Shown: in pieces, positions 3,000 through 59,590 of the stretch | How positions within the stretch are numbered: the first letter of the stretch is position 1 | Layout of the letters: every line of letters starts with the position of its first letter | Source: Minisyncoccota bacterium | GTDB lineage: Bacteria > Patescibacteriota > Minisyncoccia > Phycocordibacterales > JABAAK01 | Assembly: GCA_963668425.1 (NCBI GenBank) | Contig: OY764332.1 | Location: forward strand, 105,241 to 169,240 | Direction: 5' to 3' | DNA: 64,000 nucleotides | Translations under genes and position numbers: made by a program | Notes under the pieces: model-generated | Seen by the model: only the letters and a program-made list of their open reading frames with translations | The model's database searches: none | Told to the model about the DNA's origin: nothing

Positions 3000-3359
3000 T
3001 TAGAGCGATTCTACTTTTCGGAATTCTATATTTGGATCGGGCTGTGATGACCCCCCTGTTCCTAACACTGCAGTTTGTAGAAAATACACTAATCCCCACA
3101 TGCTTACTAATACAAAAATACCTATAATGCCCCATAGTATTCGCTTTTTTGCATCTTCCGATGTGGCATTATCCTTGCGAATATAGTCCACTAGTCCCCA
3201 GAAAAAATAAAGGAAAATCAAGGTAACAGCTACGATAATGAGTGCTCTTATTGCCATAGAAAAATCATCAAATAGGAATAGTATTCTATCTATCTCTTGC
3301 AGGGCAGGACCTTTATCTCCTGTGTCTGCAAAAACCATTCCATGCGAGAGTGTCAGCAT
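3000..3359 (-). CDS. small membrane protein, VirB2/TrbC-like, paralog 2
   Basis: FLYFFWGLVDYIRKDNATSEDAKKRILWGIIGIFVLVSMWGLVYFL matches the family pattern hhhhGF/W..Y.R...AKKR..G..G.....S.WG. Confidence 0.5.
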   Translation of the reverse strand: MLTLSHGMVFADTGDKGPALQEIDRILFLFDDFSMAIRALIIVAVTLIFLYFFWGLVDYIRKDNATSEDAKKRILWGIIGIFVLVSMWGLVYFLQTAVLGTGGSSQPDPNIEFRKVESL

Positions 3360-3361
3360 AT

Positions 3362-4138
3362 TTAGTTACCTGTATACACTTGGATTCCTCTGTTTACATT
3401 TTTAGATATTCTTCTACAATTTGTTGTAAGATGATGGCATTGCTTTGGATCTACACATTCTGTTATTCCCTTTCTTCCACTTTTTGTATAGCAGGGTTTT
3501 TCTGCAGCACCAGCCCCAGGGATAAGCCCTGTGGTGTCCTGACCTGCAGCACTTAGTGCGTTTATATCCTGCTGTGTAATAGTATAGTTATATACGGTAG
3601 TATCACCTTCACTGAAATTTACTGTAGGCAAGGTCAGATCGTCAACCACTTCCCCTGCATTAATTCCTAATACTCCACGCACAAATCCGATGATACCCCA
3701 TAAGGTTACAATCACAAAAATCGCTGCTAATGAGTAGCCCATCCTTGTTTTTGCTGCCTCTTTGTCCTCTTCATCTCTAATGTATTTTACCAAGTTCCAG
3801 AAGAAGTAAAAGAATGCGGCGGTTACCACAATACCTACCATTGTTTGTAAGAGTACTGCAAACACGTTTGCCCCTTCGTAGAAGTTGCCTATTGCGTATG
3901 CAATGGTTCCGCCACATATAGGTGCACCTCCTCCTGTTGGGTGTGTATGTGAGTCAGCGTTTGTGCAGTGTTCTATTGGAAGATTATTAACAAGGTAGGG
4001 ATCGGCATATGCTGTGTGTTGCGAGAGAGTAAAAAGGAATACTATACTCGTAATGATCGCTACAATGAAAAAGATCTTGCTTATTGTTTGATTGTTGTGT
4101 ATGCTATTCATATGTAGTAAGTATATCCTGTTTTCCAT
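3362..4138 (-). CDS. membrane protein with Cys-containing extracellular N-domain and VirB2/TrbC-like C-terminal hairpin, paralog 3
   Basis: 258 aa. FFYFFWNLVKYIRDEEDKEAAKTRMGYSLAAIFVIVTLWGIIGF is the same two-helix module, preceded by a longer Cys/Gly-rich domain. Confidence 0.5.
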   Translation of the reverse strand: MENRIYLLHMNSIHNNQTISKIFFIVAIITSIVFLFTLSQHTAYADPYLVNNLPIEHCTNADSHTHPTGGGAPICGGTIAYAIGNFYEGANVFAVLLQTMVGIVVTAAFFYFFWNLVKYIRDEEDKEAAKTRMGYSLAAIFVIVTLWGIIGFVRGVLGINAGEVVDDLTLPTVNFSEGDTTVYNYTITQQDINALSAAGQDTTGLIPGAGAAEKPCYTKSGRKGITECVDPKQCHHLTTNCRRISKNVNRGIQVYTGN

Positions 4139-4252
4139 GTATTAAAGATAGTATGTGGATAAAAAATGGAGTCACTTTCTCAATAAAATCTTGTTTTTTC
4201 TGCCTTGTGCTTTACAAATAATCTTGCCGGCAATGTAGTTATATCACAGGGT

Positions 4253-4280
4253 TGACAAAAATAATGGCAAGTGCTATAGT
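4253..4280 (+). promoter_or_regulatory. sigma70-like promoter, TTGACA-16 nt-TATAGT, in front of the non-coding transcript
   Basis: TTGACA at 4253-4258, 16-nt spacer, TATAGT at 4275-4280. No ORF of 60 aa or more follows on the plus strand. Confidence 0.55.
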
Positions 4281-4287
4281 GCTATCA

Positions 4288-4680
4288 GTGGTCGGGAAGC
4301 GTGGAGAAATCCCGCGTACCGGGACCCTGCTCTTTGATCACAGGAATTAATTGTGTTGAGGTGTTTAGTAACGTTCGTTGAAGGTCAGAGTAAGCGTGTG
4401 CCTTGGTTGGTTGCGCTGAAGATCTCCGAACTGTGAAAGACCATACCTCCTATTTTACTTCCTAGGCCATGGGTGGTCAGCGAATATAGTGCTTCTGGCT
4501 CATTCGCTCCCCTGGTTGAATTCTTACTTTCTAAAATTGCTCCCACTGTGTTTAAGGAAGGACGCGACCAACGTCACTGACCTTGCACTTTTAACCGACC
4601 AACCATCGTGTGGTTGAGCAGTGAGTGATACTAAGTAGACCCATTATGCCCAGACAATCGCGTCTGGGCATATTCTTTTA
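4288..4680 (+). ncRNA. candidate structured ncRNA of about 390 nt, possibly RNase P RNA (rnpB); class unconfirmed
   Basis: Consensus promoter upstream. Rho-independent terminator GCCCAGAC-aatcgc-GTCTGGGC plus T-tract at 4648-4680. No plus-strand ORF. Motifs resemble bacterial RNase P RNA: GGAGAAAUCCCGCG vs P4 GGAAAGUCCGGGC, GUAAGCGUGUGCC vs GUAAGAGCGCACC, and CAGUGAGUGAU..UAGAC near the 3' end vs CAGUGAGCGAU..UAGAUGA. The motif order is not fully consistent, so this is tentative. Confidence 0.4.
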
Positions 4681-4809
4681 TGTCTATATACTATGCACAC
4701 ATTGACATTGTGTGCGTTTTTTATTGACATACCACTTGTTCTTGCTTTATCATATAGGTATATGGTGTGGGGTTTGAATTCAAGTAACTTGTAAGCAGGA
4801 GGTGTACTA

Positions 4810-5367
4810 GTGAAACGGTTTGTTGTATTTTTTTTATTTTGCGTTGCTAGTTGTGTGTTGTTGCTGTATGGGTGTGGCAGTACGACACGCAGTGTCGGAG
4901 GTGGCTTATTGTTCAGCAACACACGTCGCTCAATTACGGCCATCGTTGTACATCACACTGCTGGCACGGCGAGCAATGATATACAGCAGGTTGCATCAGA
5001 GATTTCCCGGTTGCATAAACGGAAGTTTCGTAAGATGCGTAAGAGTGTTGGGTTGCATGTTGCTTACCACTACCTGATTACGCCAAATGGAAAGGTGTGG
5101 AAAGTGCGCGATCCGGATGATGTCGGCTATCACGCTGGCAACTGGAGTATCAATAAGCGATCTGTTGCTGTTTGCGTGGTTGGTGATTTTTCAAAGTATC
5201 ACCCGACCCGTGCGCAGGTACGATCTCTTGACACGCTGGTCAAAAAGATGCAGAGAGAGCGACAGATCAAGAATGTAATTCCACATTCTTATTGCAGAGC
5301 AACGCTCTGTTGTGGCGAATACCTGAAGCGAGAAGTTCGTAATCTCTCGTGGGGGAGATATTTTTAA
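4810..5367 (+). CDS. N-acetylmuramoyl-L-alanine amidase (Amidase_2/PGRP family)
   Basis: GTG start preceded by AGGAGGTG. Signal peptide present. AIVVHHTAG...GYHAGNWSINKRSVAVCVVGDF is typical of the Amidase_2 zinc-amidase domain. Terminator at 5393-5428. Confidence 0.7.
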   Translation: MKRFVVFFLFCVASCVLLLYGCGSTTRSVGGGLLFSNTRRSITAIVVHHTAGTASNDIQQVASEISRLHKRKFRKMRKSVGLHVAYHYLITPNGKVWKVRDPDDVGYHAGNWSINKRSVAVCVVGDFSKYHPTRAQVRSLDTLVKKMQRERQIKNVIPHSYCRATLCCGEYLKREVRNLSWGRYF

Positions 5368-5392: not shown

Positions 5393-5428
5393 ACCTAACA
5401 CACACTGTTGTGTTAGGTATTTTTTTTA
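5393..5428 (+). terminator. intrinsic terminator after the amidase gene
   Basis: ACCTAACACA-cactgt-TGTGTTAGGT followed by a T8 tract. Confidence 0.7.
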
Positions 5429-5773
5429 TCCGGTAAATATAGTACGCAGAAGATATACAAATCCCCAGAGGGAGAAGACAGCGAAGAGTGTGAGGATGCC
5501 GTAAAGGAGACGTTTCTTGGCGAGGTCTGCCATGTTGCTGTCGCCTTTACTTGCCCCGCGCATGTAGAGAACAATACCGTATATAAACATGAAGAGGAGA
5601 ATAGTTACTGCAAGCGGTATAAGCACTCCGCCAAGCGCTTGAATGACAAGATCTACTATGCCCTTGAGTGAGAGATTCTCCCAAGTTGGTTGGGCGTACA
5701 CGTTGCCTACGCTTGTTGCCATAATGCAGAGCAAGGGTATTGTTATTATTTTTATATATACACTCCTTTTCAT
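5426..5773 (-). CDS. small membrane protein, VirB2/TrbC-like, paralog 4
   Basis: LFMFIYGIVLYMRGASKGDSNMADLAKKRLLYGILTLFAVFSLWGFVYLL. Translationally coupled to the upstream paralog by a 4-nt overlap. Confidence 0.5.
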   Translation of the reverse strand: MKRSVYIKIITIPLLCIMATSVGNVYAQPTWENLSLKGIVDLVIQALGGVLIPLAVTILLFMFIYGIVLYMRGASKGDSNMADLAKKRLLYGILTLFAVFSLWGFVYLLRTIFTG

Positions 5774-6162
5774 ACTTCTCCTTCTTCCTGACCTCCAATA
5801 ACCTCCACCTTATACTCATCGTCCAGCACATCGTTGAGTGTATTTTGAATTACAAAGAGAATGCCACGCGCGCCGAGAACGAGAAACAAGCCAACCAAAG
5901 ACCACGCAAAAGCATCTTTCCACTTCGTATAATCAGCATTTTTTTCTTTGCCGGCAAGCACCATACGGAAACCAATGTAGGCAATGCCGAGTACAATAAT
6001 AGGCATTAAGATAATAGTAATACCCTCTGTCAGTGCCAGTATGAGTTCGCCGAGTGTATCATATTCCAATGGGTTACAAAAAATAACATCGGGGTCACAA
6101 TCCGCATATGCAAGGGTTGGAACAAATAGTGCAACTGCTGACAGTATAATGGCGTGTACCAT
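5770..6162 (-). CDS. small membrane protein, VirB2/TrbC-like, paralog 5
   Basis: IIVLGIAYIGFRMVLAGKEKNADYTKWKDAFAWSLVGLFLVLGARGILFVI has the same architecture. Confidence 0.5.
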   Translation of the reverse strand: MVHAIILSAVALFVPTLAYADCDPDVIFCNPLEYDTLGELILALTEGITIILMPIIVLGIAYIGFRMVLAGKEKNADYTKWKDAFAWSLVGLFLVLGARGILFVIQNTLNDVLDDEYKVEVIGGQEEGEV

Positions 6163-57143: not shown

Positions 57144-57476
57144 TGGGGTATATCAAGATCGTATGTATTATACATACGGTCTTTTTTTATACAAAATATT
57201 TTTCTCTTCCGTGGTGACGCAAACTCAACCAGTGTTTGACATAAGTTAAAAAATCTATTATAATATTGTTCAGTGTGTTCGTTTTTATGTACTATATGTA
57301 ATTTTGATTTGAGGAGGTAAATATCGTGGAACTTTTTTGGTTTTTTGCTTTCAAGTTTTTGTCAGTCTTAGCGCGCGTGGGTATTGTTTGGGCGGTTGCT
57401 ATCACATTCTCTTCCAGATGTCGCAAGATATGGACGAACATTCTGGACAAAATATTTTATTAAGCAGGAGAACTAT

Positions 57477-58084: not shown

Positions 58085-59590
<1,506 letters not shown>

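What the first reader, a model, noticed from the sequence alone, without database searches (positions are those of the whole stretch)
4253..4680. Standalone ~390-nt non-coding transcription unit with consensus promoter and intrinsic terminator (RNase P RNA candidate)
TTGACA-16-TATAGT is followed by about 390 nt without any ORF and a strong hairpin plus T-tract. Several stretches resemble conserved RNase P RNA regions: GGAGAAAUCCCGCG, GUAAGCGUGUGCC, and CAGUGAGUGAU...UAGAC near the 3' end. The predicted TSS leaves too little 5' sequence for P1-P3, and the motif order is imperfect. The RNA could therefore be a different structured RNA, or start further upstream.
Basis: partly seen in the sequence, partly recalled or inferred. 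Interest (0 to 1): 0.55.

Follow-up and report, generated by a model that had tools for sequence, protein, structure and literature searches.

The report
Variable structured RNA upstream of amidase
A near-consensus promoter in a Kaiserbacteria (CPR) genome drives a folded, non-coding RNA of about 390 nt just upstream of a cell-wall amidase gene; the RNA is not RNase P RNA, matches no described RNA family, and in closely related species the same invariant promoter drives unrelated RNA sequences.

Summary
There is a near-consensus extended -10 promoter (4252-4280), about 390 nt with no conserved ORF, and a perfect 11-bp terminator (4645-4680). A second terminator and a second promoter follow, ahead of a lipoprotein Amidase_2 gene.

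The RNase P reading fails. No Rfam model hits the region even at E<=10, here or in seven homologous loci. The "RNase P-like" strings are local hairpin strands or are not conserved. In close relatives the whole RNA body is replaced by unrelated sequence, which is not expected of an essential catalytic RNA.

Eleven syntenic loci from Kaiserbacteria/Paceibacteria share the layout pilin genes(-) | invariant promoter + (U/G)CAG start | structured RNA of 300-525 nt | terminator | amidase.
- Five genomes, including the window, carry one RNA type ("A"). It is 64-80% identical where synonymous sites are saturated. Thirty-nine of 88 predicted pairs show compensatory changes.
- Six genomes carry six mutually unrelated but strongly folding bodies. 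This does not follow the species phylogeny.
- In six of the eleven, the amidase has no promoter of its own and starts 10-70 nt after the terminator.

Best reading: a new, clade-specific structured RNA unit coupled to the amidase, acting as a leader/attenuator. In the window genome it is effectively a stand-alone RNA. Its function has not been demonstrated.

The parts
4234..4300 (+). Conserved promoter island: A/T-rich upstream element, -35, -10 and the first ~15 transcribed nt. It is the only part of the gap alignable in all relatives.
   Evidence: Invariant columns GGTTGACAAA / TGCTATAGTG / TCAG in alignment A1. blastn of the window against L005, L059 and L060 finds only this island inside an otherwise dissimilar stretch of ~1.1 kb.
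4252..4280 (+). Promoter P1: TTGACA, 17 nt, TGcTATAGT (extended -10).
   Evidence: 11 of 12 matches, TG present. The same promoter is found in 11 of 11 syntenic loci.
4287..4680 (+). The non-coding RNA ('type A' body, ~390 nt). The start at A4287/G4288 and the end in the U-tract are inferred, not mapped.
   Evidence: No ORF. GC is 0.48 against 0.41 for the window. Identity to L001/L002/L006/L007 is 64-80%, while amidase 4-fold sites are 34-42% identical. There are 88 predicted pairs; 88.5% of cells are paired and 39 pairs carry double changes.
4288..4341 (+). 5'-terminal hairpin domain (RNA nt 4-57): a 20-pair stem with a conserved AGAAA bulge. It begins at about the first transcribed nucleotide.
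   Evidence: Hand-registered pair table: 93 of 100 cells paired, with compensatory changes at 7 pairs. Covariance model R1 finds it only in the five type A loci, E 1e-17 to 1e-20.
4342..4463 (+). Domain 2: a long irregular hairpin (helices 3-7), tipped by a hairpin whose loop carries CUUGGUUGGU (4393-4417).
   Evidence: helices 3, 5, 6 and 7 each have 2-4 pairs with double changes. Helix 4 is the weakest, with 73% of cells paired.
4465..4517 (+). Domain 3: a stem enclosing a hairpin (4479-4508) with the conserved loop UUCUGGCUCA (4493-4502).
   Evidence: helices 8 and 10 have 3 and 4 pairs with double changes and 94% of cells paired.
4518..4547 (+). A/U-rich linker predicted to be unpaired, with the conserved CUCCC (4540-4544).
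   Evidence: Alignment A2 and consensus fold. That it is single-stranded is a prediction only.
4548..4588 (+). Domain 4: 3' hairpin (15 pairs, loop CGACCAA).
   Evidence: helix 11: 7 of 15 pairs have double changes and 94.6% of cells are paired.
4589..4607 (+). C/A-rich, G-poor linker UUUUAACCGACCAACCAUC. It is complementary both to the GU-rich loop at 4402-4412 and to the 5' end UGGUCGG. A possible pseudoknot or alternative pairing; unresolved.
   Evidence: The consensus fold pairs it with nt 5-9. The loop-linker pairing was checked by eye only; its register differs in L002 and there are no clean double changes.
4645..4680 (+). Intrinsic terminator T1 (11-bp stem, 6-nt loop, U-tract).
   Evidence: A terminator sits at the equivalent place in all 11 RNAs.
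4693..4723 (+). Second terminator T2. Its T-tract runs into the -35 of P2.
   Evidence: Present in the window, L001, L002 and L006.
4724..4753 (+). Promoter P2 of the amidase gene (TTGACA, 18 nt, TATCAT).
   Evidence: 11 of 12 matches. Conserved in the window, L001, L002, L006 and L060. No promoter of at least 9/12 is found in L005, L007, L008, L009, L050 or L059.
4762..4781 (+). Conserved motif AUGGUGUGGGGUUUGAAUUC in the P2-derived 5' UTR.
   Evidence: Alignment A1. L060 matches window 4743-4776.
4810..5367 (+). Downstream gene: a 185-aa lipoprotein N-acetylmuramoyl-L-alanine amidase (lipobox LYGC). It is always next to the RNA and in the same orientation.
   Evidence: Pfam Amidase_2, 5e-23. 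PHROG amidase/endolysin families. Synteny in 11 loci.
3362..4138 (-). Divergently transcribed pilin-like gene (context). Its N- and C-terminal parts are hypervariable between relatives.
   Evidence: Pfam T4SS_pilin. blastn breaks in similarity.

Best explanation
This is a real, clade-restricted, structured non-coding RNA transcription unit in a Kaiserbacteria-like CPR bacterium. It belongs to no described RNA family and is not RNase P RNA.

Shown:
- An invariant, near-consensus sigma-70 promoter starts transcription about one nucleotide before a 5'-terminal hairpin.
- The RNA (~390 nt here, 300-525 nt in relatives) is multi-domain and folded, and it ends at an intrinsic terminator directly upstream of a co-oriented lipoprotein peptidoglycan amidase gene.
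- The window's version ('type A') is under purifying selection and shows compensatory base-pair changes.

Inferred mechanism, about 45% likely: the unit works as a long leader/attenuator. Most P1 transcripts stop at the terminator and accumulate as a stable RNA protected by its 5' stem. Terminator read-through sets transcription of the amidase gene. In six of the eleven genomes this appears to be the only route to amidase mRNA.

In the window genome, two tandem terminators and a separate promoter P2 uncouple the two genes. Here the RNA is effectively a stand-alone RNA. Its conserved sequence implies a function of its own, possibly pairing of C-rich/anti-SD segments with the amidase mRNA; this last step is speculative.
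For: Promoter, terminator and absence of an ORF.

Invariant promoter and start in 11 syntenic loci with the order pilin(-) | RNA(+) | amidase(+).

Purifying selection on type A: RNA identity is 64-80%, against 34-42% at amidase 4-fold sites, and it tracks the identity of the coding flanks.

Structure of type A:
- 88.5% of cells are paired.
- 39 of 88 pairs carry double changes, against 17.3 +/- 2.8 in shuffles (0 of 500 reach the observed value) and 6-14 in slid controls.
- Many G-U pairs fit only the + strand.
- The 5' hairpin table is.

All 11 RNAs begin pairing at nt 1-4. The non-A bodies fold far better than shuffles, with z of -3.2 to -5.8.

Coupling to the amidase: L005, L007, L008, L009, L050 and L059 have no promoter of at least 9/12 between the RNA and the amidase, and the terminator ends 10-70 nt before the RBS.

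No described family matches.
Against: - There is no expression or end-mapping data. The TSS and the 3' end are inferred.
- In the window, L001, L002, L006 and L060 the amidase has its own 11/12 promoter, mostly behind two terminators, so the RNA cannot be only a leader there.
- The terminators in the genomes without P2 are strong (7 U's), and no conserved antiterminator alternative was found.
- There is no conserved aptamer-like core. Six RNA bodies are unrelated to type A and to each other. This argues against ligand sensing and is hard to square with the strong sequence constraint inside type A.
- The window RNA's own MFE z-score is only -1.2.
- The covariation rests on five sequences and on a structure predicted from those same sequences.
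- A weak internal promoter in the genomes without P2 cannot be excluded.
Confidence: 0.55

Rival explanations
1. RNase P RNA (rnpB), the first reader's candidate: the catalytic RNA subunit of the tRNA 5'-processing enzyme, perhaps too divergent for standard models.
For: The size (~390 nt), strong promoter, terminator and three short strings loosely recall CR-I, P10-12 and P15-18 (read directly from the sequence). No rnpB gene was found elsewhere in the 64 kb, but that is only about 9% of a ~700-kb genome.
Against: - No RNase P model of any type matches at E<=10 on 751 nt or at E<=1 in seven homologous loci.
- The 'CR-I-like' string pairs locally within a 5' hairpin rather than forming P4.
- The other two strings are not conserved even within type A.
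- There are no universally conserved internal nucleotides. Species with 89-94% identical GyrA carry unrelated sequence at the locus.
Confidence: 0.02
2. A stand-alone trans-acting regulatory RNA, base-pairing or protein-sequestering. On this reading its adjacency to the amidase is historical, or it regulates amidase or pilin mRNAs in trans.
For: - In the window genome it has its own promoter and two terminators, followed by a separate amidase promoter.
- Sequence-level purifying selection and compensatory changes in type A.
- Anti-SD-like ACCUCCU (4443-4451) is complementary to the amidase SD AGGAGGUGU (4797-4805), 9 bp. Similar matches occur in L005, L006, L007 and L060.
- G-poor, C-rich tracts lie before the terminator in several bodies. 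From my own knowledge, these resemble the C-rich seed regions of Gram-positive sRNAs.
Against: - A sequence-specific trans-regulator should not be replaceable six times by unrelated sequence among close relatives.
- The anti-SD segment is paired in the consensus fold (helix 4).
- Complementarity of 8-11 bp is about what chance gives.
- Cognate and non-cognate duplex energies do not differ.
- The strict co-orientation and adjacency to the amidase in 11 of 11 loci would be unexplained.
Confidence: 0.25
3. Transcription itself is the selected feature. The invariant strong promoter would serve, for example, as the amidase promoter, as an insulator, or to couple supercoiling to the divergent pilin operon. 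The RNA body would then be a largely dispensable, structured by-product.
For: The promoter is the only element conserved in all 11 loci, while the bodies are unrelated. The divergent pilin operon starts ~115-150 nt upstream.
Against: - Type A is conserved as strongly as the flanking coding sequence and shows compensatory changes.
- The non-A bodies are GC-rich (0.45-0.52; L005 is 0.40) and fold with z of -3 to -6, which is not expected of neutral spacer DNA.
- Terminators are retained in every locus.
Confidence: 0.08
4. A hypervariable 'cassette' RNA acting as a specificity or conflict determinant (host, phage or kin interaction). On this reading it is maintained as divergent alleles and exchanged by recombination between an invariant promoter and the conserved amidase core.
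For: - The bodies do not follow the GyrA and SBP trees. Type A occurs in all clades, and six unrelated bodies are scattered among them.
- The neighbourhood (pilin-like surface proteins, a lytic amidase) is itself hypervariable.
- The layout promoter - ncRNA - terminator - gene recalls type III toxin-antitoxin loci (my own knowledge).
Against: - Each non-A body is a singleton, so shared alleles across species are shown only for type A, whose divergence matches vertical descent.
- There are no tandem repeats and no endoribonuclease toxin.
- The RNA has no copy elsewhere in the window, so there is no DGR-type TR/VR pair.
- No defence genes were identified nearby.
Confidence: 0.1

Closest known systems
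Terminator-ended 5' leaders / transcription attenuators, including riboswitch leaders upstream of cell-wall hydrolase genes such as the c-di-AMP (ydaO) riboswitch
   Same: A promoter, then a long structured untranslated RNA, then an intrinsic terminator immediately before the RBS of the controlled gene (six of eleven loci). The controlled gene is a peptidoglycan hydrolase.
   Different: No Rfam riboswitch or leader model matches. There is no conserved aptamer core, and the bodies are unrelated between close species. No antiterminator alternative was identified. In five loci a second promoter bypasses the leader.
Type III toxin-antitoxin loci (ToxIN-like): promoter, antitoxin RNA, terminator, toxin gene
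   Same: The order of elements; a terminator that would set the RNA-to-mRNA ratio; and fast-evolving, locus-specific RNA.
   Different: No tandem repeats. The downstream protein is a secreted lipoprotein amidase, not a ToxN/CptN/TenpN endoribonuclease.
Large bacterial ncRNAs of unknown function found by comparative genomics (OLE, ROOL, GOLLD, raiA, HEARO)
   Same: Size of hundreds of nucleotides, a multi-domain fold supported by covariation, lineage restriction and an unknown biochemical role.
   Different: None of their Rfam models matches. Those families have conserved cores across wide ranges, whereas this locus keeps the promoter and swaps the body.
Bacterial RNase P RNA (types A and B)
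   Same: Length of about 390 nt, a stand-alone gene with promoter and terminator, and raised GC.
   Different: No CM match, no P4/CR-I-CR-V core, not conserved among close relatives, and a different fold (independent hairpin domains).
Stand-alone sRNAs with C-rich seed regions in Hfq-independent bacteria (RoxS/RsaE-type)
   Same: Own promoter and terminator, and G-poor C-rich tracts near the 3' end in several bodies.
   Different: It is three to four times longer. There is no sequence similarity. C-rich tracts are not significant in the window's own RNA, and no targets have been shown.

Membership tests
RNase P RNA (Rfam RNaseP_bact_a/b and related) | The covariance model scores at or above gathering, or at least gives a weak consistent hit. 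| tested here: not met
   No hit at gathering, none at E<=10 on 4100-4850 on either strand, and none at E<=1 in seven homologous loci.
RNase P RNA (Rfam RNaseP_bact_a/b and related) | A long-range P4 helix formed by the universally conserved CR-I (GAGGAAAGUCC) and CR-V (ACAGAA..GGCUUA). | tested here: not met
   GGAGAAAUCCCGCG is a bulge plus a strand of a local hairpin pairing with nt 36-40, with covariation. There is no CR-V-like partner, and no internal nucleotide is invariant across the 11 loci.
RNase P RNA (Rfam RNaseP_bact_a/b and related) | An essential gene conserved in sequence among related species. | tested here: not met
   Species with 89-94% identical GyrA have unrelated sequence at the locus.
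RNase P RNA (Rfam RNaseP_bact_a/b and related) | No other rnpB gene or protein-only RNase P in the genome. | not testable with these tools
   Only 64 kb of a ~700-kb genome is held, and there is no rnpB in it. The whole genome could not be fetched.
tmRNA / 6S RNA / SRP RNA | A match to the family model: tRNA-like ends and a tag ORF (tmRNA), a single rod with a central bubble (6S), or the domain IV motif (SRP). | tested here: not met
   ARAGORN finds no tmRNA. There are no Rfam hits. The consensus fold is a string of separate hairpin domains, not a rod.
Riboswitch / ligand-sensing leader | An aptamer core conserved in sequence and structure across species. | tested here: not met
   The bodies are unrelated between close relatives, and no Rfam riboswitch matches.
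Riboswitch / ligand-sensing leader | An expression platform: a terminator next to the controlled gene, with a mutually exclusive antiterminator. | tested here: inconclusive
   The terminator sits directly before the RBS, with no other promoter, in six of eleven loci. Candidate alternative pairings (5' end or GU loop with the C/A linker, or with the terminator arms) are not consistent between genomes.
Type III toxin-antitoxin antitoxin RNA | Tandem direct repeats of the antitoxin unit, followed by a terminator and an endoribonuclease toxin gene. | tested here: not met
   There is no tandem repeat in the RNA. The downstream gene is Amidase_2.
DGR template repeat RNA | A near-copy (VR) of the RNA segment in a nearby target gene, plus a reverse transcriptase. 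| tested here: not met
   No second copy in the 64 kb. Pfam found no RT domain in any of the 20 ORFs scanned, which cover window 322-22545 with a few ORFs unscanned.
Generic structured ncRNA gene (promoter, fold under selection, terminator) | Conserved transcription signals, purifying selection, compensatory base-pair changes and no coding potential. | tested here: met
   Expression itself was not tested.

The most novel reading that the evidence does not exclude
The locus may be a promoter-anchored, hypervariable structured-RNA site. An invariant strong promoter and 5' start are kept, while whole RNA bodies of 300-500 nt, each strongly folded, are repeatedly replaced by unrelated ones among species that differ by only 6-20% in GyrA. 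These RNAs would act as allele-like specificity or conflict determinants, tied to the surface pili and to a lytic amidase of an episymbiotic CPR bacterium. That would make it an RNA-level counterpart of polymorphic toxin/immunity or pherotype cassettes.
Probability: 0.12. Interest if true: 0.85.

Novelty: new variant of a known kind. Interest (0 to 1): 0.6.

Why it matters
CPR/Patescibacteria make up a large share of bacterial diversity, yet almost nothing is known about their regulatory RNAs. I found no paper in the searchable library that describes this locus.

This is a large, covariation-supported RNA with an rRNA-grade promoter, next to a peptidoglycan amidase and pilin genes. Those are the kind of genes expected to mediate attachment to a host or lysis of it.

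If the RNA gates amidase expression, it would be a handle on how these reduced cells control a potentially self-lethal or host-lethal enzyme. If the body replacement is real allele turnover, it is an unusual mode of RNA gene evolution.

The result also removes a false RNase P call.

Tried and rejected
- **Known RNA families.** Rfam at gathering and at permissive E-values, on the window and on seven homologous loci, gave nothing relevant. The weak NmsRb and trpB hits are only the two terminators. ARAGORN found no tmRNA.
- **Alternative genetic code or a hidden ORF.** The standard code fits the window, and no ORF is conserved.
- **Tandem or dispersed repeats, DGR TR/VR.** None.
- **Database scans with the promoter pattern.**
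  - In GTDB genomes the pattern alone is generic: 48 hits, of which only two are relatives.
  - JGI metagenomes returned only the contig already held.
  - IMG/VR gave one chance hit in a GC-rich phage, upstream of a coding gene.
  - Phage blastn found nothing.
- **Exact look-up of the window's amidase.** It failed with both V and M as the first residue. The source genome's gene call is a 110-aa truncation, and that could not be looked up either.
- **Cognate versus non-cognate RNA-mRNA duplex energies.** No specificity, and RNAduplex on long RNAs is uninformative.
- **Antiterminator ideas.** Pairing of the 5' end with the terminator arms works in the window, L001, L002 and L005 but not in L006 or L007 (and reading by eye). 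Pairing of the conserved loop UUCUGGCUCA with the terminator 5' arm is not consistent.
- **GU-loop / CA-linker pseudoknot.** The register differs in L002, so it is left as a possibility only.
- **Shared motifs across RNA types.** A k-mer search found nothing beyond low-complexity U/C runs.
- **Covariance model of the type A 5' domain.** It finds no non-A RNA. The L009 hit at 1252-1321 lies inside a coding region and has no promoter.
- **Failed scripts.** A first k-mer script also timed out.
- **Whole-RNA covariance model.** Not attempted, because the 400-column limit and the calibration limit exclude it.
Full report
**What is in the sequence**

The finding lies in a 670-nt gap (4139-4809). On one side is a pilin-like gene on the minus strand (3362-4138, Pfam T4SS_pilin). 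On the other is a plus-strand gene for a 185-aa Amidase_2 protein with a lipoprotein signal (4810-5367).

The promoter scan finds TTGACA, 17 nt, TGcTATAGT at 4252-4280.

Two terminator-like hairpins follow. T1 (4645-4672) is an 11-bp perfect stem with the tail UUCUUUUAU. T2 is at 4693-4717 with a U6 tail. A second 11/12 promoter (P2, 4724-4753) comes next.

No frame on either strand is open across 4200-4700. The window uses the standard code and is otherwise almost fully coding. GC rises to 0.45-0.49 over the unit, against 0.41 for the window. The descriptive part of the finding is therefore confirmed.

**Organism and neighbourhood**

The window carries a CPR-type 16S rRNA. It also carries core genes: gyrA, S1, signal peptidase, ftsA, ftsZ, trxB and rpoD. 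The closest named amidase homologue is from Candidatus Kaiserbacteria, and one syntenic locus is from a complete Paceibacterota chromosome. This is chromosomal DNA of a Kaiserbacteria-like bacterium with a housekeeping sigma-70, which fits a consensus promoter.

**Test of the RNase P idea**

Rfam 15 at gathering thresholds finds only the 16S gene and one tRNA in the window. A permissive scan (E<=10) of 4100-4850 on both strands yields only weak sRNA-model hits, and these are simply the two terminators. Nothing appears for RNase P, tmRNA, 6S, SRP or any large ncRNA. The same holds at E<=1 for seven homologous loci. ARAGORN finds no tmRNA.

- GGAGAAAUCCCGCG is a conserved AGAAA bulge plus the 5' strand of a local hairpin that pairs with nt 36-40.
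- GUAAGCGUGUGCC is one strand of a covarying, non-conserved hairpin.
- CAGUGAGUGAU...UAGAC lies in the least conserved spacer.

The comparative data below show that close relatives lack this sequence altogether. RNase P RNA is rejected. I could not test whether a canonical rnpB lies elsewhere in the genome.

**Relatives**

The amidase has only about 20 close homologue clusters in 5.8 billion. Fetching their contigs, plus one hit from a promoter-pattern scan of GTDB genomes, gave eleven distinct loci: the window, L001, L002 (identical to L003, L004, L034 and L058), L005-L009, L050, L059 and L060.

All have the same gene order: several pilin-like genes(-), a gap of 560-920 nt, the amidase(+), two pilin-like genes(-), a solute-binding protein(-) and gyrA(-).

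In every gap the promoter GGTTGACAAA-N(10-14)-TGCTATAGTG and the start NNN(T/G)CAG are identical. The rest of the gap is not generally alignable. The promoter pattern on its own is generic: it gave 48 GTDB hits, only two of them relatives.

**One conserved RNA type**

The window, L001, L002, L006 and L007 share one RNA body, here called type A.
- Their pairwise identity is 64-80%. Four-fold degenerate sites of the adjacent amidase are saturated at 34-42%. The RNA's identity tracks that of the coding flanks, 71-81%. This indicates purifying selection and vertical descent.
- RNAalifold predicts a string of hairpin domains.
- On that structure, without one doubtful long-range helix, 88.5% of cells are paired. 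Thirty-nine of 88 pairs have changes on both sides. Column shuffles give 17.3 +/- 2.8 (0 of 500 reach the observed value), and slid controls give 6-14.
- Many invariant G-U pairs fit only the plus strand.
- A hand-registered 20-pair 5' hairpin (RNA nt 4-57) has 93 of 100 cells paired and compensatory changes at seven pairs.

Caveats apply. There are only five sequences, the structure was derived from them, and the window RNA's own MFE z-score is only -1.2.

**Six unrelated bodies behind the same promoter**

Beyond the first 8-40 nt, the RNAs of L005, L050, L008, L059, L009 and L060 show no similarity to type A or to each other. Local-alignment z-scores are below 4, against 10-96 within type A. 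blastn on both strands finds nothing. A covariance model of the type A 5' domain finds only the five type A RNAs.

These are not distant species.
- GyrA identity to the window is 94% for L005, 93% for L008 and 91% for L059, but 86% for L007, which carries type A.
- GyrA and SBP trees agree on three clades: {window, L001, L005, L008}, {L006, L059, L050} and {L002, L060}. Type A occurs in all three.
- L006 (type A) and L059 share 96% GyrA identity over the compared C-terminal segment and have 85% identical flanks, yet their RNAs are unrelated.
- In window coordinates the dissimilar stretch runs from about 3838 to about 4924, interrupted only by the promoter island at 4234-4300.

The non-A bodies are not junk.
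- They are 300-525 nt long.
- Their GC is mostly 0.45-0.52 (L005 is 0.40).
- They contain no conserved ORF.
- They fold far better than dinucleotide shuffles, with z of -3.2, -5.8, -4.6 and -5.8 for the four tested.
- They begin pairing at nt 1-4.
- They end in intrinsic terminators.
- Several carry a G-poor, C-rich tract of 30-52 nt just before the terminator. It is significant in L005, L007, L059 and L060 but not in the window.

I have no explanation for this turnover.

**Relation to the amidase**

The window, L001, L002, L006 and L060 have a conserved strong promoter P2 between the RNA terminator(s) and the amidase. They also share a conserved 5'-UTR motif, AUGGUGUGGGGUUUGAAUUC.

In L005, L007, L008, L009, L050 and L059 there is no promoter of at least 9/12 downstream of RNA nt 150. 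In these, the terminator ends 10-70 nt before the amidase RBS. There the amidase can apparently be transcribed only by read-through from P1.

This is the main reason to read the unit as a leader/attenuator coupled to the amidase. The main reason for doubt is that in the window genome two terminators and P2 uncouple the two genes, while the RNA sequence stays constrained.

**How it most likely works**

Shown: an invariant strong promoter; a non-coding, folded RNA under selection (type A); a 5'-terminal stem; terminators; and fixed adjacency to the amidase in the same orientation.

Inferred:
- The TSS is at 4287/4288, and the 3' end is in the U-tract at 4673-4680.
- The 5' hairpin protects the RNA from 5'-end-dependent decay (general knowledge of bacterial mRNA decay).
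- Most transcripts stop at T1, and read-through or P2 supplies the amidase mRNA.

Speculative: C-rich or anti-SD segments pairing with the amidase SD. ACCUCCU at 4443-4451 matches AGGAGGUGU at 4797-4805 over 9 bp. RNA nt 23-33 can pair with the conserved UTR motif over 11 bp, four of them G-U. Both matches are about what chance gives.

My estimates are about 0.9 that this is a genuine selected ncRNA unit and not RNase P, about 0.45 for the leader/attenuator mechanism, about 0.25 for a purely trans-acting RNA, and about 0.1 each for 'transcription only' and 'conflict cassette'.

**Comparison with known systems**

The unit works most like a terminator-ended leader. Its layout also recalls type III toxin-antitoxin loci. 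It fails the defining tests of both families: there is no conserved aptamer, there are no repeats, and there is no endoribonuclease. It resembles the 'orphan' large ncRNAs (OLE, ROOL, GOLLD, raiA) in size and status but matches none of them. Literature searches in the held library found nothing on this locus or on RNase P in Kaiserbacteria.

**Verdict**

The RNase P label is wrong. What is there is an undescribed, clade-specific structured RNA unit with an unusually rigid promoter and an unusually replaceable body, linked to a peptidoglycan amidase. Interest is moderate to high and the function is unproven.

Noticed in passing
window 58129-59590 (-): The 16S rRNA gene stands alone, with no 23S or 5S anywhere in the 64 kb. 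Its 515F primer site reads GUGCCAGCAGGAGCGGUAAUAC, two mismatches from the universal sequence, so standard amplicon primers would probably miss this organism.
   Followed up: no
window 3000-4138 and 5426-6162 (-): Four PF18895 T4SS_pilin-like paralogues flank the RNA/amidase unit. The N- and C-terminal parts of the 258-aa one (3362-4138) lose all nucleotide similarity between species whose flanks are 72-87% identical, so it looks like a hypervariable surface protein.
   Followed up: partly
window 4152-4164 and 4762-4781: Two conserved short motifs lie outside the RNA. GTATGTGGATAAA sits just upstream of the pilin-like gene start. AUGGUGUGGGGUUUGAAUUC sits in the P2-derived amidase 5' UTR and is also present in L060, which has an unrelated RNA body. 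They may be regulator or RNA-pairing sites.
   Followed up: partly
window 4270-4290: The -10 region is a direct repeat, AGTGCTAT AGTGCTAT C. It creates a second, overlapping -10-like element (TATCAGT) at the start site.
   Followed up: no
window 57236-57264 (+): A perfect consensus promoter (TTGACA, 17 nt, TATAAT). It drives small membrane-protein ORFs with a good RBS (start at 57327), not an RNA gene.
   Followed up: yes
L005 3662-3880 (-) and L009 3603-3947 (-): Public gene calls place ORFs of 72 aa and 114 aa antisense inside the RNA region of these relatives. They have no Pfam hit, are not conserved, and look like spurious calls in a GC-rich non-coding RNA.
   Followed up: partly
window 4810-5367: The source genome's public gene call for the amidase is a 110-aa truncation (P0013: 100% identity, 59% coverage). 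It misses the GTG start and the lipoprotein signal peptide.
   Followed up: no
L059 3749-3772 (RNA nt 181-204): A direct repeat GUUGCGACGACU x2 of a quasi-palindromic unit lies inside the L059 RNA and forms a stable hairpin in the MFE fold.
   Followed up: no
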